Source of the DNA: a virus
Taxonomy: Duplodnaviria; Heunggongvirae; Uroviricota; Caudoviricetes
DNA: 7,043 nt
Strand: one strand, 5' to 3'
Virus record (IMG/VR): IMGVR_UViG_2651869755_000013
Position numbers and translations under genes: made by a program. Positions 1 through 7,043 of this stretch are shown in pieces; positions within the stretch are counted from its first letter, which is position 1; each line of letters starts with the position of its first letter. A model generated the notes under the pieces. That model saw nothing but the letters and a program-made list of their open reading frames with translations, had not been told where the DNA came from and made no database searches.

Positions 1-248
1 TTCGTGCAGTCTGTCTCGGAAAGAAAAACTTTATGTTCTTTGGCAGCGATCACGGCGGCGAGCGTGGAGCACTGTTGTACGGGCTGATCGGCACCTGCCG
101 TCTGAACGGTATCGATCCGGAAGCGTATCTGCGCCATATCCTGAGCGTACTGCCGGAATGGCCTTCCAACCGAGTTGACGAACTCCTGCCATGGAACGTA
201 GTACTCACCAATAAATAAGCGTCAATACGGTGCTCCGTTGACGCTTAC
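1..248 (+). mobile_element. IS66-family insertion sequence, right-hand terminal portion (partial; element continues upstream of the window)
   Basis: Transposase C-terminal ORF ends at 218. Sequence 242-248 is CGCTTAC, the reverse complement of the GTAAGCG terminus typical of IS66-family inverted repeats. Homology to phage gene C begins immediately at 249. A 9-bp hairpin (217-225 / 238-246) sits inside the terminal repeat. Confidence 0.7.
3..218 (+). CDS. IS66-family transposase (TnpC-like), C-terminal fragment; 5' end lies outside the window
   Basis: Open frame runs from the window edge to TAA at 216-218. The translation (FGSDHGGERGALLYGLIGTCRLNGIDPEAYLRHILSVL...VDELLPWNVVLTNK) matches the conserved C-terminal motifs of IS66-family transposases as I recall them (GSDxGGER, KLNGxDP, ELLPWN). 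Confidence 0.8.
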   Translation, partial: RAVCLGKKNFMFFGSDHGGERGALLYGLIGTCRLNGIDPEAYLRHILSVLPEWPSNRVDELLPWNVVLTNK

Positions 249-390
249 GTACCTGCTGTTGTGGTACCGAAAGACTTGCTGCCCCCATCTCGCGCCCGAG
301 CGCGCAAAAGAAAACCCGCGCATAGGCGGGCTCCAGAAGCAGCGGTTCATTGAATGCTGCGGCAATAATGTGTGAAAGATTACGTCTCAC
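249..390 (-). pseudogene. C: Head gene C (lambda gpC-like prohead protease/scaffold), 5' stub of about 47 codons truncated by the IS66-family insertion
   Basis: Translation from a GTG at 390 (RRNLSHIIAAAFNEPLLLEPAYARVFFCALG...) matches the lambda gpC N-terminus. Similarity ends near 250 and the frame then reads into the IS terminus and stops at 205. The start overlaps the portal gene 3' end as in lambda. Confidence 0.7.
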
Positions 391-1972
391 GTGGTGTTGT
401 CTCCTCTTCCGGCCTGCGACTCTCCGCTATCTGCTGCTGATACGCCTGCGCTATCCACACCGGACGTGAGAGTCCGGCTTTTTCCCGCTCTGCAGATTCC
501 CTGACCTGCTGGCGGAAAATGTCCTGATAATCCTCGCCCATCAGCGCCAGCTCTTTCTCATACGTGCTCAGTCCGGCCTCAATGCGCATCACTGATTCCT
601 GAACCTCCTTGAGCCCGTCAATGGCCATTCTTCCGGCTCCAATCCACTCAGCCCGTGACCAGGCTGATCGCGCCTGATAAAAATCAAAACGTGCCCGTGG
701 CGGACGAATAATCCCCCGAAGAAGTGCCTCTTCCAGCCAGCAGGAAAACATCTGCGTGGCCAGCCGGGACGCAATAAATTTTCGCCGCCCCATAAAATAG
801 CGCCACGACTCATTGGCGGATGCGCGGGCACTTGAATAACTGACCTTCGAGTAATCACGGGACAACTGTTCGTAGGAAACGCCAAGACCGGCGGCGATAT
901 ACCGCAGCAGCGCCTGTTCAAGCGCCGAAAATCCATTGTCTGAATCCTGCGCGGTCTGAAGTTTCAGATCATCACCGGGGAAAAGGTGCGGAATTTTGAC
1001 ACCGCCCAGCGTCACGCTATTCGTGTCATACCAGGTGGAGAACTTATCCAGAATATTAATAAGCGGATTATCCTTCTGCCCCTGCGGCGCACCGGCGATA
1101 TATTCAAAGGCCTTTTCGGTATCAAGGTCACTTTCAATCGTCGCTGCATACATCGCCTTCACTATGGCCGACTGAAGCTGTGTTGCCTGCAGGGAATCGA
1201 GCATCTTCAGCCGTTCCATTACGCTGTAAAACTGATTGGCTCCACGGGTCTGCCCGTCCTCCACCGGCTCGAAAATATGCAGCATGGCCGGACGCCCGGT
1301 GGGAAGTTCACGCGGGATCCGTTCCCATCGTCCACTCCCAGAGAACGGAAAATCATCCTCACAGATATGGTACGCAACGGCACGACCATATCGATCGACC
1401 TCCACACCGGCCCGCAGAAAACGGTTCCCCATACCGTGTCCTGGCGTGTCCACCCGTTTCGGACTCACGGCTTTAAAACGCGTACGAAACAGTTGCGTGC
1501 TCTCCGTATCCCAGACCGGCTGCACAAAGATTTCGCCGTTAAACGCATGAACGCCCACACCTTCACGGATAAATTCCGTAAACGTGCGTTTCCCTTCCAC
1601 GTCGATCTCGCCAAACATCCCTTCGGCGTATTCCGACCAGGCCGCCTCCACCTCATCGACAAAACTTTTTGCCGCAGTCTCCCGCATCCCCAGCCAGCGC
1701 CAGTTCGGACGGTAGCTGATCAGAAACATATGCCCGACAATATGATCCTTATGCAGGGCCACCGCATTAGCCGCTATCCCGTTATTGCGCACCAGATCAT
1801 CTGCCCGGGCATTCCCCAGACGCAACGCAGGCAGCAGGGCTGCATCGGCACTCTGCGCCGGTGGCAACCACTCCGCCATTTGCCCGCCAAATCCTGCGCC
1901 GCCCCCGTTGTAGCTGAGACTCTCACGAAGCGGAACGCCGTTCACATCAATCAGGACAGGCGTTCGTTTCAT
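380..1972 (-). CDS. B: Portal protein (lambda gpB-like), 530 aa, apparently intact
   Basis: The translation (MKRTPVLIDVNGVPLRESLSYNGGGAGFGGQMAEWLPPAQSADAALLPALRLGNARADDLVRNNGIAAN...) is near-identical to lambda gpB over the N-terminal region and of similar length (lambda 533 aa). The ATG overlaps the W stop (ATGA). Confidence 0.95.
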   Translation of the reverse strand: MKRTPVLIDVNGVPLRESLSYNGGGAGFGGQMAEWLPPAQSADAALLPALRLGNARADDLVRNNGIAANAVALHKDHIVGHMFLISYRPNWRWLGMRETAAKSFVDEVEAAWSEYAEGMFGEIDVEGKRTFTEFIREGVGVHAFNGEIFVQPVWDTESTQLFRTRFKAVSPKRVDTPGHGMGNRFLRAGVEVDRYGRAVAYHICEDDFPFSGSGRWERIPRELPTGRPAMLHIFEPVEDGQTRGANQFYSVMERLKMLDSLQATQLQSAIVKAMYAATIESDLDTEKAFEYIAGAPQGQKDNPLINILDKFSTWYDTNSVTLGGVKIPHLFPGDDLKLQTAQDSDNGFSALEQALLRYIAAGLGVSYEQLSRDYSKVSYSSARASANESWRYFMGRRKFIASRLATQMFSCWLEEALLRGIIRPPRARFDFYQARSAWSRAEWIGAGRMAIDGLKEVQESVMRIEAGLSTYEKELALMGEDYQDIFRQQVRESAEREKAGLSRPVWIAQAYQQQIAESRRPEEETTPRET

Positions 1973-2175
1973 AACCTCACTCCCAGCGGACGACGGCGAC
2001 GTCGGGTTGTCCCCAGTACCGACTCCGCATCATTGATCGCCCGGTTAAGCTCATCCAGAGAAGCCTCCGTATATTCAATTCTGCGACCATCTTTCTGGAC
2101 AGACACCACCCGTTTACCGGTTAATAAATCAAGGCGCGCCTGACGCAGCGCCTGCAGTTCAGCGACTGTAACCAT
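1969..2175 (-). CDS. W: Head-tail joining / head completion protein (lambda gpW-like), 68 aa
   Basis: A 68-aa ORF between terminase large subunit and portal, in the same position and of the same size as lambda W, with a GKRVxxVQKDGRR motif and Arg-rich C-terminus. SD GGAGGAG lies upstream of the ATG at 2175. It overlaps the A 3' end by 17 nt and the B start by 4 nt. Confidence 0.85.
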   Translation of the reverse strand: MVTVAELQALRQARLDLLTGKRVVSVQKDGRRIEYTEASLDELNRAINDAESVLGTTRRRRRPLGVRL

Positions 2176-4087
2176 TCACTCCTCCGGACAGCTTCGCTGC
2201 CAGTTCTTTAAGGGTTGGCCGGGTCGTCTCTTCTTCCCGGGATTTTGCCAGTACAGCCAGATCAAGCTGCCAGCGTTGCACGGACACACGTAATGCCGCA
2301 TAGGCATACACCAGGCAGTCCAGCGCTTCGTTACGCCGCTTTTTGTTATCCCACAGCAGACGCATCTTTCCTTTTTCCCACTTCTCCACAAGCTCTTCCG
2401 CGACCAGTTGCTGCGCCTCTGTCTGCGAAAAAATCTCCGGATCATCAGGAAAACGGATGGCATACGACGTGGCTTCATCCGCAGGAGTGGGATCGGCTTT
2501 CATACGGGCATAGAGAATTTCTTTTGCGGTGTCCGTCCCCACTTCACACAGATACACGCCCCGCTGATTGCGGGTTTTCGGCATGGTGATCACCGGCTTG
2601 CCATAGACAGATGCGCCTTTTACCGGCAGCACCCGGAAAACACCGTGTTTTTTTGACCTCTGATAGACAATTTCACCATCGATCCCCCCGGTGTCCCAGC
2701 AGACACGGGAAATGGTCATTTCGGTTCCGTCTGCATGGCAGTATTTTTTGTTGATCGCCGCATCCACACGTAACAGCGTCTCTTCCTCATCGGGACGGCC
2801 CATAATGATGATTTTATCCACCAGAAAAGCTTCCTCTCCCGGTGCCCATCCCCAGACATACATCTCAAAACGGTTTCGCTGCGAGTCAATGCCCGCCGTC
2901 AGATAAACCACCCGGGCTGGCACCGCCGCCGTGTAATGCACGACCTTATCCATCAGTACCTGGTGATCGAGTTTTTCGCCCACGGCCTCTTCCCAGGTCT
3001 CGCCCAGCGTGGTGTTCACAAAGGTTTTCAGGCCGTTGGGATCTTTCAGTGCATCCAGCCAGTCATAGACTATCTGTACCCAGGTGGTGAACGGACTGTA
3101 CGCCGTCCAGATATGGAACGTGATGGAGCGCGGCGGCGGAATTTCATTATCCGCGGCGCTGAAAAACGTCAGACCGTCACGGGTCCACATCCCCGTGTTT
3201 TCACAGATCCACCGCCCGTTGCTCTGGTCAAGCTCAGACTGATGGATCACGCAGCCATGATGTTCACAGAGGTAGAAAACGCTTTCGGGGCTGTCCTTCT
3301 CCCATTTAAGGCCAAAAGGCGTGGATTCATCGCCAAATTTCAGATACTGCTCCTCCCCACAGTGTGGGCAGGGCACATAAAAACGCATGAAATGCGCCGA
3401 CTCGTTGGCCGCTTTTTCGATCTGGCAGGTGCCTTTGATTTTAGGCGTCGAGCCGCGAATGGATTTGGGCCATACAGAGCCCTCAATACGTTTATCCCCA
3501 AGCAGGGTTGGCGACCCCTCTTTTTCGACATCCGGTTCGAACGAGGAAAGTTCGTCATAGCAGACCACGTCCACGGATTTTTCACGGTAGTTTTTAGCGG
3601 CAGCCCCGCCCAGGCACCAGAAGCCCACGCCCGATGAAAAACGTTTCAGCGTGAGGGTATTATCACGATGTTTACGCCCAAACCACGGTGCAAGATCGAG
3701 TAAAACCGGCACATCCCTGATCGTGGGTTCCACATGAGATTTCATAAAATCTTCAGCAGCAGAATCCGTGGGCTGGAAAAGAAGGCTGTTGCGTGATTTA
3801 TGCTCAATAAAATAAGCCTCCACTCCCAGCAACATCTTTGTATAACCAACACGGGCAGATTTAATCAGATTAACAGTGCGGATCCGGTCATTCCCCATGC
3901 TGTTCATGATGGCAACCTGAAACGGCAGTGTTTCCCACCGCCCCGGGGTGTAAGATGACTCTTTCGGAAGGTAATAATGTCGATCTGCCCACTGAACTGT
4001 CGTCAGAGGGACAGGAATTTTTAGCGCAAGGAGGCCGGTTGCTATCGCTCCTGCAGAATTAGCCGCCCTCAGTTCGTCTGAAATCAT
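2159..4087 (-). CDS. A: Terminase large subunit (lambda gpA-like), about 642 aa
   Basis: Strong lambda gpA similarity from [27 protein letters not shown] through the ATPase and nuclease regions ([74 protein letters not shown]). I place the start at ATG 4087 ([10 protein letters not shown]...), which has an AGGTGG SD 4 nt upstream and gives a 29-nt overlap with Nu1, close to the 26-nt overlap in lambda. The track's longer ORF to 4129 has no SD. Confidence 0.95.
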
Positions 4088-4607
4088 CAATCCACCTGCG
4101 CACATTCTCACCGGCTTCAGAAGCCACATCGGATGCTTTCGCGATTTCAGTTTTCACAGCATCAAGATGTACGGGTGATATATCAGGGTATTTACGCTGC
4201 AGTGTCTGAGGGACACGGACAAGGATCCCTGATATATTCTGTGCCACTCGCTGAAAGATGTAGGTAAATAACTCCGTCTCGAGGACAAGGCCTTCCTCAC
4301 GAGCATTTTTCAGCTCCTGTGCATCGGCCTGTGCCTTCGTCAGTCGGTAACGTTCGTAATCAATGGTGCAGGGCTGAAGGTCTGATTCGCTGGCAGCCCT
4401 CAAATCCTCGATCTCTTTACGGAGTTTTTCGTTTTCAATATCAGCTTCCCTCTGCGCATACCACTGAATGGCAGCAGTTGTATCAAAAACTGATTCAGTC
4501 CCTTTCCCTCCACCAGAAACTAGTGGTAACCCCTGACTCTGCCAGGCGGTGATGGTCCTGACATCAACGCCAAAAATATCGGCCAGTTTTTTCTTATTGA
4601 CGTTCAT
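4059..4607 (-). CDS. nu1: Terminase small subunit (lambda gpNu1-like), 182 aa
   Basis: The translation ([29 protein letters not shown]...GGGKG...[48 protein letters not shown]) matches lambda Nu1, including the N-terminal wHTH region and the ATP-binding segment. A GGGGGAG SD precedes the ATG at 4607. It lies about 170 bp from cosN, as in lambda. Confidence 0.92.
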
Positions 4608-4624
4608 ACACTCCCCCGGGAACC

Positions 4625-4745
4625 AGAAAGGATCTGAAAATGGCGTTTTCTAACAAAAACAGCCTTTGTCAGATCCTTTTATATTTTTAAAATTCTATTG
4701 ATAATCAATCAGTTAAAAAGAAGAAGAACGGATCTGATTTTTCCC
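4625..4745 (-). other. cosB-like region: three copies of a GGATCTGA motif (R1 4630-4637, R2 inverted 4669-4676, R3 4730-4737) with an IHF-consensus site (4703-4715) between R2 and R3
   Basis: The repeats are visible directly: GGATCTGA at 4630-4637 and 4730-4737, and TCAGATCC at 4669-4676. AATCAATCAGTTA at 4703-4715 fits the IHF consensus WATCAANNNNTTR. The arrangement (R3 and R1 direct, R2 inverted, IHF site between R3 and R2, all between cosN and Nu1) mirrors lambda cosB. Confidence 0.6.
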
Positions 4746-4776
4746 TAAAAATTTTCATAAATAGCGAAAACCCGCG

Positions 4777-4788
4777 AGGTCGCCGCCC
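4777..4788 (-). other. cosN: 12-nt cohesive-end sequence (minus strand GGGCGGCGACCT), the terminase nicking site; cosQ-like flank at about 4789-4823
   Basis: The reverse complement of 4765-4800 reads CGACCGGTTACGGGGCGGCGACCTCGCGGGTTTTCGCT. This contains the exact lambda left cohesive end GGGCGGCGACCT followed by CGCGGGTTTTCGCTATTTATGAAAATTTT, as at the lambda left end, and is preceded by ...GGTTACG as at the lambda right end. Confidence 0.85.
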
Positions 4789-4823
4789 CGTAACCGGTCG
4801 GATCGCCGGAAAGGACCCACGAA

Positions 4824-4840
4824 ATGATAATTATTATCAT
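4824..4840. promoter_or_regulatory. Perfect 17-bp palindrome ATGATAATTATTATCAT; its core TGATAATTATTATCA matches the Fur-box 7-1-7 consensus TGATAATnATTATCA
   Basis: The 8-1-8 palindrome was verified base by base. It lies about 35 bp beyond cosN on the right-end side of the phage and about 155 bp upstream of the plus-strand RHH ORF. The TGATAA/TTATCA motif recurs nearby (4852-4857, 4956-4961). Confidence 0.35.
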
Positions 4841-4994
4841 CTATATAAGGTTTATCACAACATGTGTGTACGCCATCAAACCACGAGAAATAATCAATTA
4901 TGACGCAGGTATCGTATTAATTGATCTGCGTCAAATTAACGTAAAAGCAACTTCAGATAATACAAATCAGCAACACTGAATATGGGGAAACATT

Positions 4995-5180
4995 ATGTCA
5001 TCAAAGAACAGAACCCGCAGAACAACAACCCGCAACATCCGATTTCCAAACCAGATGATTGAACAAATTAACATCGCTCTTGATCTGAAAGGTTCAGGAA
5101 ACTTTTCAGCGTGGGTTATTGAAGCCTGCAGAAGAAGGCTGTCAACAGAGAGTTCGGGTATGAATTACATAATTAAGTAA
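4995..5180 (+). CDS. Small (61 aa) predicted ribbon-helix-helix (CopG/Arc/MetJ-like) DNA-binding protein, transcribed opposite to the phage late genes
   Basis: ATG at 4995 has a GGGGAA SD-like sequence 6-7 nt upstream. The sequence pattern is a basic N-terminus (SSKNRTRRTTTR), a short beta-strand-like NIRFP, then two helices (NQMIEQINIALDLKG, NFSAWVIEACRRRL), typical of RHH folds. Fold assignment is by eye only. Confidence 0.5.
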   Translation: MSSKNRTRRTTTRNIRFPNQMIEQINIALDLKGSGNFSAWVIEACRRRLSTESSGMNYIIK

Positions 5181-5803
5181 CATGGTGTTCACAGAACACG
5201 CAGTTACCGGACACATCAGTTTTCCATTCGCTCCCTGGCAGTACAGGCTTCCCCTCTGACGGGATAGCCTGAAAAAATAACACAGAAAATTATTTGTTAT
5301 AATTAATATAACTTACTCAAAAAAAAGCGACGAGAAAATCAGCATCAACGAACAATAAGCGCCAATACGTGATAACAAATGGCAGCCATATTTATCTGCA
5401 GTATAAGCAATGGACAGGATAACCACTCCAGAAACCGTCAGCATAAAATCCATTTGAACTTCCCCGGACAAAATCGACTCATCTAAAGATTTACAGCTCT
5501 TTTTATTATCAATATGTTAAAAGTAAAATAAACAGATGTTCAATAACACGAATACAAAAACGTGCTGAAATTCAATGAATCCATTTCTGTGTCATCAATT
5601 AATAGTGATAAACATCCGGCTTCTTCCACCATCGCACCGGACAGGCGACTATGAGGGGACAACGCCGCGCTCCGTTAACGCGGTAAACCCCGGTGTGTGT
5701 CGTTTTTGATTATCCCCGCACACTCGCGCAGAGGAGTCTCCCTGTCGGGCTGCGGTCTCTGTTAATGCGGGGATACGGCGACAATACCGCGCATCAGCAA
5801 AAC

Positions 5804-6277
5804 CTATTTCAGGCACTGAGTGCGGATATAGTCCTGCGCCCCTTCCAGCTGCTTCTGCATCAGCATCAACCGTTCTCTGAGAGTGAAATAATCCCGTTCA
5901 GCGGTGTCTGCCAGTTGGGGGCCGGTTGCATTATCCACGCGGGCGGTGCCGGTGGCTTCACGCACGGGACCTGGACAGGTGGCGTTGATACGCAGGCGCT
6001 TACGACCAGCGGCAACGTCAGCGCGAAGAGTTTCATTTTCAGCTCTCGCATCGGCTAATTCCCTCGAGTATTTTGCATCGAGCGCAGCAACATCGCGCTG
6101 GCGCACCTGCATATCAGTAATGGTTGCGTTCGCCAGCTTCAGTTCACTGGCTTTGTTATCGCGCTGCGCTTTGTAGGTAATCGCGTTATCACGGTAATGG
6201 TCTGTTGCCATCCACAGCGCTCCACAGGCCACCAGCAGAATAACGATAAACGCGGAAAGCATTCGGTTTATGTTCAC
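5804..6277 (-). CDS. Rz: Rz i-spanin (inner-membrane spanin subunit), 157 aa from GTG at 6277 (alternative ATG at 6262)
   Basis: The translation (...[69 protein letters not shown]...[41 protein letters not shown]) is highly similar to lambda Rz, with an N-terminal TM segment. The GTG start overlaps the stop of the upstream small ORF (GTGA). Confidence 0.9.
5866..6051 (-). CDS. Rz1: Rz1 o-spanin (outer-membrane lipoprotein subunit), 61 aa, embedded in the +1 frame of Rz
   Basis: Lies entirely inside Rz in another frame. Signal peptide with lipobox (LPLVVSAC) followed by a Pro-rich mature region ([26 protein letters not shown]), closely matching lambda Rz1. Confidence 0.85.
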
Positions 6278-6405
6278 CCCAGCAGCCCCGACGAAGACAA
6301 CATCATCCAGGCCATGGAAAGAAAAAGAGCAACCAGCATTAGTGAAAATGAAATGCCGACAATTACACAGAGGATCTTCGCCAGCGTTATGAGTTTGTCT
6401 GACAT
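6274..6405 (-). CDS. Hypothetical 43-aa hydrophobic single-TM peptide ([43 protein letters not shown]), translationally coupled to Rz
   Basis: ATG at 6405 is preceded by a strong SD (AAGGGAGGA) at 7-nt spacing. The TGA stop overlaps the Rz GTG start. The gene occupies the position where a lambda-type cassette has its endolysin gene, but it is far too short and too hydrophobic to be one. The track's 73-aa version includes an N-terminal extension with no SD. Confidence 0.5.
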
Positions 6406-6419
6406 GCTTAATCCTCCCT

Positions 6420-6602
6420 TCACGATTTCAACGCAATGACCAGTTTTGCCAGCCCATACAGCATCGGGGACACAGCAACACCGACCGCCACCCACTTAAT
6501 GGCAAAAGCCAGTGCTCTGCTGATGTCATCAGTTACAGGCGCTTTCAGTTCAAGGCCGTTTTTCATAGTCAACCTCAACAGAATTCGTTTATACTTTTCC
6601 AT
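6420..6602 (-). CDS. Hypothetical 60-aa protein with a charged N-terminus and a C-terminal TM segment ([60 protein letters not shown]); candidate holin-like or lysis-regulatory membrane protein
   Basis: ATG at 6602 has an AGGGAGAA SD upstream and is the first gene after the terminator hairpin. Codon usage looks E. coli-like (CTG-rich). The stop is 14 nt upstream of the next ORF's start. I do not recognise similarity to lambda S or phage 21 S. Confidence 0.45.
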
Positions 6603-6636
6603 GTTCTCCCTTGCCTTATCCAAGGTCAGAAACACA

Positions 6637-6677
6637 AAACCCCGCTTGCAGCCAACAAACGGGGTTTTTACTTTTAT
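6637..6677 (-). terminator. Intrinsic terminator-like hairpin with U-tracts on both strands (tR'-like on the late-gene strand)
   Basis: Stem CCCCG (6640-6644) pairs with CGGGG (6660-6664) and extends by A/T pairs (6637-6639 with 6665-6667). On the minus-strand RNA the stem is followed by UUUUGUGUUUCUG; on the plus strand by UUUUUACUUUUAUU. It sits about 35 bp upstream of the 60-aa ORF. Confidence 0.5.
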
Positions 6678-6739
6678 TCACTTAGGTTTTGCCAGTTCTC
6701 AGGATTTCGTGTTATCCGTCCGCATTAGCCAACGTCATT

Positions 6740-6769
6740 TTTCAACAAAATATTCTGCTTATTTGTCAA
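6740..6769 (-). promoter_or_regulatory. Candidate remnant of the late promoter (pR'-like): consensus -35 hexamer TTGACA at 6764-6769 (minus strand), without a convincing -10
   Basis: A perfect TTGACA lies about 100 nt upstream of the terminator hairpin. Hexamers at 15-19 bp spacing (GTTGAA, TTGAAA) match TATAAT poorly. The IS629 end is only 27 bp upstream. Confidence 0.2.
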
Positions 6770-6796
6770 TTCCCCAGCACGCCAGCGCGCTCTCCT

Positions 6797-7043
6797 TGAA
6801 CCGCCCCGGGAATCCTGGAGACTAAACTTCCTGAGAAAGAGGTAAACAGGATGACTAAAAATACTCGTTTTTCCCCTGAAGTCCGTCAACGGGCAGTCCG
6901 TATGGTTCTGGAAAGTCAGGGCGAATATGACTCACAATGGGCGACAATTTGTTCCATTGCTCCAAAGATTGGCTGTACGCCGGAGACTCTGCGTGTCTGG
7001 GTTCGCCAGCATGAGCGGGATACCGGGGGCGGTGATGGAGGGC
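6797..7043 (+). mobile_element. IS629-like (IS3-family; IS629/IS1203 group) insertion sequence, left end (partial; continues beyond the window)
   Basis: The left terminus TGAACCGCCCCGGGAATCCTGGAGACTAAACTTCCTGAGAAAGAGGTAAACAGG begins at 6797 and is followed by orfA at 6851. The sequence matches IS629 as I recall it, and the terminal TG is typical of the IS3 family. Confidence 0.85.
6851..7043 (+). CDS. IS629-like OrfA (IS3-family transposase N-terminal HTH protein), 5' portion; 3' end outside the window
   Basis: ATG at 6851 with an AGAGGTAAACAGG SD. The translation [64 protein letters not shown] matches IS629 OrfA as I recall it. Confidence 0.88.

What the first reader, a model, noticed from the sequence alone, without database searches (positions are those of the whole stretch)
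1..390. IS66-family insertion truncates head gene C immediately downstream of an intact Nu1-A-W-B packaging block
Homology to lambda gpC stops after about 46 codons at 250-265, and the IS66-type terminus (…CGCTTAC, ending at 248) abuts it. The rest of C and, presumably, the downstream head and tail genes are displaced or lost. Without C-dependent prohead maturation the prophage cannot make heads, yet terminase, portal and cos appear intact. This is the usual picture of a decaying but partly functional prophage; such intact cos/terminase modules can sometimes still be acted on in trans by a helper phage.
Basis: partly seen in the sequence, partly recalled or inferred. Interest (0 to 1): 0.45.

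Follow-up and report, generated by a model that had tools for sequence, protein, structure and literature searches.

The report
ISEc23 insertion in prophage gene C
A common E. coli jumping gene (ISEc23, IS66 family) has landed in codon 48 of the head-protease gene C of a lambda-like prophage; this is an ordinary knockout by simple insertion, and the rest of the phage is not lost in the one genome where both IS ends can be read.

Summary
Bases 1-248 are the right end of ISEc23 (IS66 family). They are 100% identical to an annotated copy and end in ...CGCTTAC at 248. From 249 onward, on the minus strand, lie the first 47 codons of lambda-type gene C (start GTG at 390). Upstream in phage order come full-length B, W, A and Nu1, and a cosN identical to lambda's.

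The same junction occurs in 8 public contigs. Only one of them, a 4.99-Mb contig (L003), resolves both IS ends. It shows a complete 2532-bp tnpA-tnpB-tnpC element flanked by an 8-bp target duplication (GCAGGTAC). The remainder of C follows directly, then D, E, FI, FII and the tail genes. The exact empty site exists in strain ML35.

The window itself ends inside the IS, so its own linkage cannot be read.

Bases 6797-7043 are the left end of an IS3-family (IS629/IS1203-like) element that cuts endolysin gene R 38 nt before its stop.

Verdict: a routine, recent IS inactivation of a prophage. Low interest, already known in kind.

The parts
1..248 (+). Right end of ISEc23 (IS66 family): the 3' end of tnpC plus the terminal inverted repeat ending ...CGCTTAC
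   Evidence: 100% identical to L002 6001-6248, an annotated ISEc23 copy, with identity lost at 249. 100% identical to the corresponding part of the 2532-bp element in L003.
3..218 (+). Last 71 codons and the TAA stop of transposase gene tnpC
   Evidence: Pfam DDE_Tnp_IS66_C, E=2e-17. NCBIfam transpos_IS66, profile positions 338-385 of 387.
216..247 (.). Perfect 10-bp inverted repeat (TAAGCGTCAA / TTGACGCTTA, 12-nt loop) inside the IS terminal repeat, starting at the tnpC stop codon
   Evidence: the repeat finder pair I2. No function was tested.
249..256 (.). Proximal copy of the 8-bp target-site duplication (GTACCTGC on the plus strand, GCAGGTAC in gene orientation)
   Evidence: In L003 the same 8 bp flank both ends of the IS. 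They occur once in the empty site of ML35.
249..390 (-). 5' fragment of head protease/scaffold gene C: GTG start at 390, 47 codons plus 1 nt
   Evidence: 69% identity to lambda gpC residues 6-44. 100% nt identity to the annotated 'S49 family peptidase' 5' end in many E. coli genomes.
205..390 (-). Fusion ORF of 61 aa: 47 residues of C plus 14 IS-encoded residues (RKRQRSTVLTLIYW), then a stop
   Evidence: Translation. The exact protein is deposited as 'peptidase S49 domain protein', E. coli 2-222-05_S3_C2/C3, and as STP77265.1. No Pfam domain.
380..1972 (-). Portal gene B, 530 aa, full length
   Evidence: Pfam Phage_portal_2, E=3.7e-100. 61% identical to lambda B across residues 5-523.
1969..2175 (-). 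Gene W, 68 aa
   Evidence: Pfam gpW, E=4.9e-22.
2159..4087 (-). Terminase large subunit gene A, 642 aa, uninterrupted
   Evidence: Pfam GpA_ATPase and GpA_nuclease. 67.5% identical to lambda A. Same length as the RefSeq annotation of identical DNA.
4059..4607 (-). Terminase small subunit gene Nu1, 182 aa
   Evidence: Pfam Phage_Nu1, E=1.4e-85. 51% identical to lambda Nu1 over the full length.
4777..4788 (-). cosN, the 12-nt cohesive-end sequence GGGCGGCGACCT
   Evidence: Exact match. cosN plus the next 29 nt (41 nt in all) are identical to lambda bases 1-41, and cosB diverges after that.
6759..6796 (-). 3' remnant (last 38 nt) of endolysin gene R
   Evidence: Encodes ...ESALACWGIDK*, which equals the C-terminus of the L003 lysozyme. 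Identity to L003, L004 and L001 stops at 6796.
6797..7043 (+). Left end of an IS3-family (IS629/IS1203-like) element: IRL TGAACCGCCCCGGG..., orfA starting at 6851
   Evidence: 99.2% identical to an annotated IS3-family copy in L012, whose first base aligns with 6797 and which has a 3-bp duplication ACG. 96.7% identical to copies annotated IS629.

Best explanation
A copy of ISEc23 has transposed into codon 48 of gene C of a lambda-like E. coli prophage. ISEc23 is a 2532-bp IS66-family insertion sequence carrying tnpA, tnpB and the DDE transposase gene tnpC. It lies antisense to the phage late operon. The insertion was a simple one made by staggered cuts 8 bp apart, which left an 8-bp target duplication. 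It splits C into a 61-aa fusion peptide that lacks the whole S49 protease domain, and a distal part that lies just beyond the IS. C is essential for lambda head assembly, so the prophage can no longer make functional proheads on its own. Nu1, A, W, B and cos are untouched because the event is recent: the flanking DNA is still 100% identical to uninterrupted relatives. No selection need be invoked. In the window's own strain a second IS, of the IS3 family, also cuts endolysin gene R. Shown: the IS identity, the exact junction, the truncation, the target duplication and downstream genes in L003, and the empty site. Inferred: that the window's own genome still has the distal part of C next to the IS; that late transcription reads through the IS; and the phenotype.
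For: The junction is at 248|249 and bases 1-248 match ISEc23 at 100%. IS66 protein models hit the window fragment and all three ORFs of the full copy. In L003 the element is 2532 bp, its terminal repeats start with GTAAGCG (20 of the first 24 positions match), and the 8-bp duplication GCAGGTAC lies on both sides. A 200-bp reconstructed empty site is found exactly in ML35. The remainder of C (Peptidase_S49) and D, E, FI, FII, Z, U, V, G, T and H follow the IS in L003. An independent ISEc23 insertion in FII of a sister prophage also has an 8-bp duplication, GTATTGAA. In the intact allele the S49 domain lies at residues 146-293, downstream of the break. C is scored essential in lambda, and the late genes are expressed from PR' as one 27-kb mRNA (PMC10695390; PMC3224144). 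The same junction is present in 8 contigs from NCBI, ENA and Logan assemblies. Bases 249-6796 are 100% identical to several complete genomes. No intrinsic-terminator-like site lies in the late-transcript direction inside the IS.
Against: The window stops 248 nt inside the IS, so its own distal junction is unseen. Only one contig (L003) resolves both ends. Two short-read contigs with the same proximal junction (L006, L007) continue into unrelated DNA beyond the distal IS end. The window's strain is not L003 or L004, because it carries an extra IS in R. No complete genome, GTDB representative, phage record or plasmid record holds the junction. The metagenome contigs lack the distal junction, which is the only one scanned there. 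The phenotype is inferred from lambda genetics and was not tested for this phage, whose C is 53% identical to lambda C.
Confidence: 0.88

Rival explanations
1. In the window's own genome the IS marks a rearrangement. After the original insertion, recombination between ISEc23 copies (or an IS-mediated deletion or inversion) separated the cos-Nu1-A-W-B-C' segment from the rest of C and from the head and tail genes.
For: The window ends inside the IS and cannot exclude this. Contigs L006 and L007 share the proximal junction but have unrelated DNA past the distal IS end. The window's strain has accumulated a further IS in R, so it is a more decayed derivative. Sister prophages carry deletions, for example the C-E fusion in ML35.
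Against: L003, the only long contig, shows an intact duplication and collinear downstream genes. The distal junction of L006 is the ISEc23/transposase junction found in 45 complete E. coli genomes (all six records listed are 48-132 kb in length). A short-read assembly walking through a 2.5-kb repeat into another copy explains it at least as well. L007 is a metagenome contig with only 45 nt beyond the IS.
Confidence: 0.2
2. The junction is an assembly artefact: a chimeric join between a prophage contig and an unrelated IS copy.
For: Both window ends lie about 248 nt inside multi-copy IS elements, as expected for a short-read contig that stops at repeats.
Against: The identical junction occurs in 8 independently assembled contigs, one of them a 4.99-Mb contig. 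The IS is flanked by a perfect 8-bp duplication of the target, which a chimera would not create.
Confidence: 0.02
3. There is no real truncation. gpC homology continues in another frame, or the break is a mosaic recombination boundary between C alleles.
For: Many draft contigs from differing prophage variants end at C nt 140-142, which could hint at a boundary there.
Against: Bases 1-248 are 100% ISEc23 and encode the transposase C-terminus on the opposite strand. The sequence that follows in intact alleles (AGCTTGATGC...) is absent from the window. 1866 of 2036 matching records carry uninterrupted DNA across the site. The contig-end partial proteins form a continuum of 30-47 aa, with no peak at the junction.
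Confidence: 0.01

Closest known systems
ISEc23 (IS66 family insertion sequence of E. coli and enterobacterial plasmids)
   Same: The window's 248 bases, and the full 2532-bp element in L003, are 100% identical to a copy that RefSeq annotates as 'IS66-like element ISEc23 family transposase' with tnpA and tnpB. It has a GTAAGCG-type terminal repeat and an 8-bp duplication.
   Different: Nothing differs in the element. Only its location, codon 48 of prophage gene C, is particular to this lineage. The ISfinder reference sequence could not be consulted.
Lambda C amber/null mutants (gpC, S49 prohead protease; Nu3 nested in its 3' third)
   Same: Loss of the C product with B, Nu1, A, W and cos intact. 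The expected block is in prohead assembly and maturation (PMC3224144; PMC10695390; Medina et al. 2010, as cited there).
   Different: Here the lesion is a 2.5-kb insertion, not a point mutation, so it may also be polar on Nu3, D, E and the tail genes unless Q-antiterminated transcription reads through. This C is only 53% identical to lambda C and is 501 aa against 439 aa.
IS-inactivated, decaying lambdoid prophages of E. coli (for example IS629 insertions in O157 prophages; cryptic prophages DLP12, Rac and Qin)
   Same: Multiple IS hits in morphogenesis and lysis genes of an otherwise recognisable lambdoid prophage. Sister copies carry different lesions: FII::ISEc23, A::IS3 and a C-E deletion.
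   Different: Decay is at a much earlier stage. The flanking DNA is still 100% identical to uninterrupted relatives, and in L003 all late genes are present.

Membership tests
IS66 family insertion sequence | DDE transposase (TnpC) matching IS66 transposase models | tested here: met
   Window 3-215: Pfam DDE_Tnp_IS66_C, E=2e-17, above cut-off. The NCBIfam transpos_IS66 match covers the last 48 profile positions. Full copy in L003: NCBIfam transpos_IS66, 452 bits against a cut-off of 180, plus Pfam LZ_Tnp_IS66, zf-IS66 and DDE_Tnp_IS66.
IS66 family insertion sequence | Three-gene organisation tnpA-tnpB-tnpC (classic IS66; PMC12888890) | tested here: met
   Seen in L003 and L002, which carry the same element: TnpA 141 aa (NF047595, 83 bits against a cut-off of 74), TnpB 116 aa (IS66_TnpB, 120.9 against 50), TnpC 537 aa. 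Only the 3' end of tnpC lies inside the window.
IS66 family insertion sequence | Terminal inverted repeats of 20-30 bp beginning GTAAGCG (PMC11946415, citing TnCentral) | tested here: met
   Both ends of the L003 copy begin GTAAGCGT, and 20 of the first 24 positions match. The window's end reads ...ACGCTTAC at 241-248.
IS66 family insertion sequence | 8-bp target-site duplication (PMC11946415) | tested here: met
   L003 has GCAGGTAC on both sides, and the sequence occurs once in the ML35 empty site. An independent copy in L002 has GTATTGAA on both sides. The window shows only the proximal copy, at 249-256.
ISEc23 specifically | Near-identity to the ISfinder reference ISEc23 | not testable with these tools
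   ISfinder is not available. The name rests on the RefSeq/PGAP annotation of a 100% identical copy.
Lambda-type gene C (S49 family prohead protease/scaffold) | Position directly after and overlapping portal gene B, with N-terminal homology to lambda gpC | tested here: met
   The GTG at 390 overlaps the end of B (380) by 11 nt. 69% identity to lambda gpC residues 6-44, E=2e-18.
Lambda-type gene C (S49 family prohead protease/scaffold) | Peptidase_S49 catalytic domain present in the product | tested here: not met
   The 61-aa product has no Pfam hit. In the intact allele the domain lies at residues 146-293, beyond the break. The gene is therefore a truncated fragment and not a functional member.
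IS3 family (IS629/IS1203-like) element at 6797-7043 | Characteristic left terminal repeat, orfA, and near-identity to annotated copies with a 3-bp duplication | tested here: met
   IRL TGAACCGCCCCGGG starts at 6797. 99.2% identity over 247 nt to an annotated IS3-family copy in L012 that is flanked by ACG/ACG. 96.7% identity to copies annotated IS629. Only one end is in the window, so its own duplication is unseen.

The most novel reading that the evidence does not exclude
The 6.5-kb cos-Nu1-A-W-B segment, bracketed by two different IS elements and still 100% identical to active relatives, might be retained as a working packaging module. A co-resident or superinfecting lambdoid phage could exploit it: a helper supplies proheads while the resident terminase and cos package prophage-adjacent DNA. 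Alternatively, the ATG 32 nt inside the IS left end reads in frame into the rest of C (467-aa ORF, L003 12643-14046). It could yield an N-terminally shortened but active protease, so that the prophage is not in fact dead.
Probability: 0.04. Interest if true: 0.35.

Novelty: already known. Interest (0 to 1): 0.08.

Why it matters
It matters little beyond annotation. The result tells an annotator that this prophage should be scored as defective, with C::ISEc23 and, in this strain, R::IS3-family. It shows that the 61-aa 'peptidase S49 domain protein' in GenBank is an IS-fusion artefact. It also shows that the downstream head and tail genes should be looked for 2.5 kb away and not assumed lost. 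The junction could serve as a lineage marker for the few E. coli strains that carry it. Sister prophages with different lesions illustrate how quickly near-identical prophages are independently disabled, which is a well-documented pattern.

Tried and rejected
1. I searched for the exact junction in 5426 complete E. coli genomes, phage records, plasmid records and GTDB species representatives, and found none. The source genome could not be identified.

2. A metagenome scan for the distal junction gave 0 hits.

4. I looked up the 129-aa mechanical ORF spanning the R::IS3 junction (6436-6825 +) to recover the source contig. It is not on record.

5. I followed the 47-aa contig-end partial C proteins (P0011) as possible further carriers of the insertion. 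The contigs end at C nt 140-142 without any IS base. They come from differing prophage variants and belong to a continuum of 30-47-aa partials. They are not evidence for the IS. The site is not a general mosaic boundary either.

6. An apparent 23-bp extension of the IS3 match into R (6774-6796) turned out to be a mismatched BLAST extension against unrelated flank.

7. I scanned for an outward promoter at the IS end that could drive distal C and found none near that end.

8. The split A gene in L003 is caused by two homopolymer indels relative to the window. This is probably sequencing error and does not affect the window.

Full report
**What is in the window.** On the minus strand the window carries the late-operon start of a lambda-like prophage. 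Reading in phage order it contains:
- the last 38 nt of endolysin gene R (6759-6796);
- Rz (5804-6277; Pfam Phage_lysis);
- cosN (4777-4788);
- Nu1 (4059-4607), A (2159-4087), W (1969-2175) and B (380-1972);
- the start of C (GTG at 390).

Each of the four packaging and portal genes hits its lambda-family Pfam model along its length. Each has essentially the lambda length: 182/181, 642/641, 68/68 and 530/533 aa, at 51-67% identity. cosN plus the next 29 nt (41 nt in all) are identical to lambda bases 1-41. cosB diverges after that, in keeping with the diverged Nu1.

**Checking the observation.** Megablast of the window against 5426 complete E. coli genomes gives many 100% matches that all begin at 249 and end at 6796. 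No genome spans 248|249. Bases 1-248 are 100% identical to the right end of a copy annotated 'IS66-like element ISEc23 family transposase' in NZ_AP045810, and identity stops exactly at 248. Bases 3-215 encode the last 71 residues of an IS66 transposase. The stop is at 216-218 and the element ends ...CGCTTAC at 242-248.

On the other strand 142 nt of C survive, which is 47 codons plus one base. They align to lambda gpC residues 6-44 at 69% identity. The reading frame then runs 14 codons into the IS to a stop, giving a 61-aa fusion ORF (205-390).

An exact-protein look-up with the 61-aa fusion ORF found 8 contigs with the same junction. One of them, L003, is a 4.99-Mb contig of GCA_900450085.1 and resolves everything:
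- The IS is complete at 2532 bp, with tnpA (141 aa), tnpB (116 aa) and tnpC (537 aa). All three hit IS66-specific models.
- Its terminal repeats both start GTAAGCGT, and 20 of the first 24 positions match.
- The 8 bp GCAGGTAC flank it on both sides.
- Joining the two flanks with one copy of the 8 bp gives a 200-bp sequence that is found exactly in strain ML35. That is the empty site.
- Directly after the IS come the rest of C (Peptidase_S49 domain) and D, E, FI, FII, Z, U, V, G, T and H.

These features match the published family definition: terminal repeats of 20-30 bp starting GTAAGCG, 8-bp direct repeats, and TnpA/TnpB/DDE transposase (PMC11946415; PMC12888890). A second, independent ISEc23 insertion in FII of a sister prophage (L002) also has an 8-bp duplication, GTATTGAA. 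The event was therefore a simple transposition, and the downstream genes are displaced by 2.5 kb but not lost.

**Limits of that conclusion.** The window is not from L003 or L004, because it diverges from both after 6796. It ends inside the IS, so its own distal junction is inferred. Two short-read contigs with the same proximal junction (L006 from Logan, L007 from an ENA metagenome) continue into other DNA past the distal IS end.

The distal junction of L006 is an ISEc23/transposase junction present in 45 complete E. coli genomes (all six records listed are 48-132 kb in length). A cross-copy walk through the 2.5-kb repeat is therefore a sufficient explanation, although real IS-IS recombination cannot be excluded. 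I put about 0.2 on a secondary rearrangement in the window's strain.

Bases 6797-7043 are not phage DNA. They begin with TGAACCGCCCCGGG, the left terminal repeat of an IS629/IS1203-like IS3-family element, and orfA starts at 6851. They are 99.2% identical to an annotated IS3-family copy in L012 whose first base aligns with 6797 and which is flanked by a 3-bp duplication. This element cuts endolysin gene R 38 nt before its stop.

Both ends of the window therefore sit about 248 nt inside multi-copy IS elements. That is what a complete short-read contig bounded by repeats looks like, and it explains why the window cannot say what lies beyond.

**Consequences (inferred).** The 61-aa product lacks the S49 domain, which lies at residues 146-293 of the intact 501-aa allele. 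In lambda, C is essential. It works with B and Nu3 at the start of prohead assembly, and all late genes are made from one PR' transcript (PMC3224144; PMC10695390). The IS lies antisense to that transcript and shows no intrinsic-terminator-like site in the late-sense direction.

From general knowledge of Q antitermination, read-through to Nu3, D, E and the tail genes is likely. The specific defect would then be loss of gpC, plus a C-terminally altered endolysin in this strain. An ATG 32 nt inside the IS left end reads in frame into the rest of C, giving a 467-aa ORF in L003. It has no recognisable Shine-Dalgarno sequence, and I rate a functional product unlikely.

**Why the packaging block is intact.** Bases 249-6796 are 100% identical to several uninterrupted or differently damaged relatives. 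Intactness therefore reflects how recent the insertion is and is no evidence of selection. L003 differs from the window only by two homopolymer indels in A and one SNP.

Sister prophages carry other lesions: FII::ISEc23 in 23CRST038, A::IS3 in SW070919, and a C-E deletion in ML35. This is the familiar pattern of rapid, independent prophage inactivation.

**Novelty and verdict.** The IS is a known element at 100% identity, and the target is a well-known gene. The fusion ORF is already deposited as 'peptidase S49 domain protein' (E. coli 2-222-05_S3_C2/C3; STP77265.1). This is a correct but ordinary observation. Its main interpretive extrapolation, that the downstream genes are lost, is contradicted by the only genome that resolves the locus. 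Interest 0.08; already known.

Noticed in passing
window 6797-7043 (and the R remnant at 6759-6796): The left end of an IS3-family (IS629/IS1203-like) element interrupts endolysin gene R 38 nt before its stop codon. This second IS lesion is absent from L003 and L004, which share the C::ISEc23 junction.
   Followed up: yes
window 1-248 and 6797-7043: Both window ends lie about 248 nt inside multi-copy IS elements. The 7043-bp window therefore looks like a complete short-read contig that stops at repeats, and linkage beyond either end cannot be read from it.
   Followed up: partly
L002 3716-6248 (NZ_AP045810); L001 4665-6142 (ML35); L012 6222-7505 (SW070919): Near-identical sister prophages each carry a different inactivating lesion: ISEc23 in FII (duplication GTATTGAA), a C-E deletion fusion, and an IS3-family element in terminase gene A (duplication ACG). 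The same prophage has been disabled independently several times.
   Followed up: partly
L003 12643-14046: An ATG 32 nt inside the left end of ISEc23 reads in frame across the duplication into the rest of C. It gives a 467-aa ORF with an intact Peptidase_S49 domain. No obvious ribosome-binding site precedes it.
   Followed up: partly
window 216-247: A perfect 10-bp hairpin (TAAGCGTCAA, 12-nt loop, TTGACGCTTA) lies inside the IS terminal repeat and starts at the tnpC stop codon. Its role (terminator or transposase-binding structure) is unknown.
   Followed up: no
L014-L023, last 52 nt of each: Draft-genome and Logan contigs from several different prophage variants end at C nt 140-142, without any IS sequence. 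They belong to a continuum of 30-47-aa contig-end C fragments in the protein collection. These are probably assembly forks between co-resident prophages, but this is not explained.
   Followed up: partly
L006 2729-2955: A Logan contig joins the prophage-side ISEc23 junction to an ISEc23/transposase junction that occurs in 45 complete E. coli genomes (all six records listed are 48-132 kb in length). This is either a cross-copy assembly join or a real recombination between IS copies.
   Followed up: partly
window 4600-4800 (minus strand): cosN plus the next 29 nt (41 nt in all) are identical to lambda. cosB and Nu1 (51% identity) have diverged, which suggests a packaging specificity different from lambda's despite the identical nicking site.
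   Followed up: no
window 2428 and 3676, against L003: L003 differs from the window by single-base homopolymer indels (A6/A5 and C3/C4) that split its A gene into 138-aa and 512-aa ORFs. This is probably long-read sequencing error in L003, not a real frameshift.
   Followed up: partly
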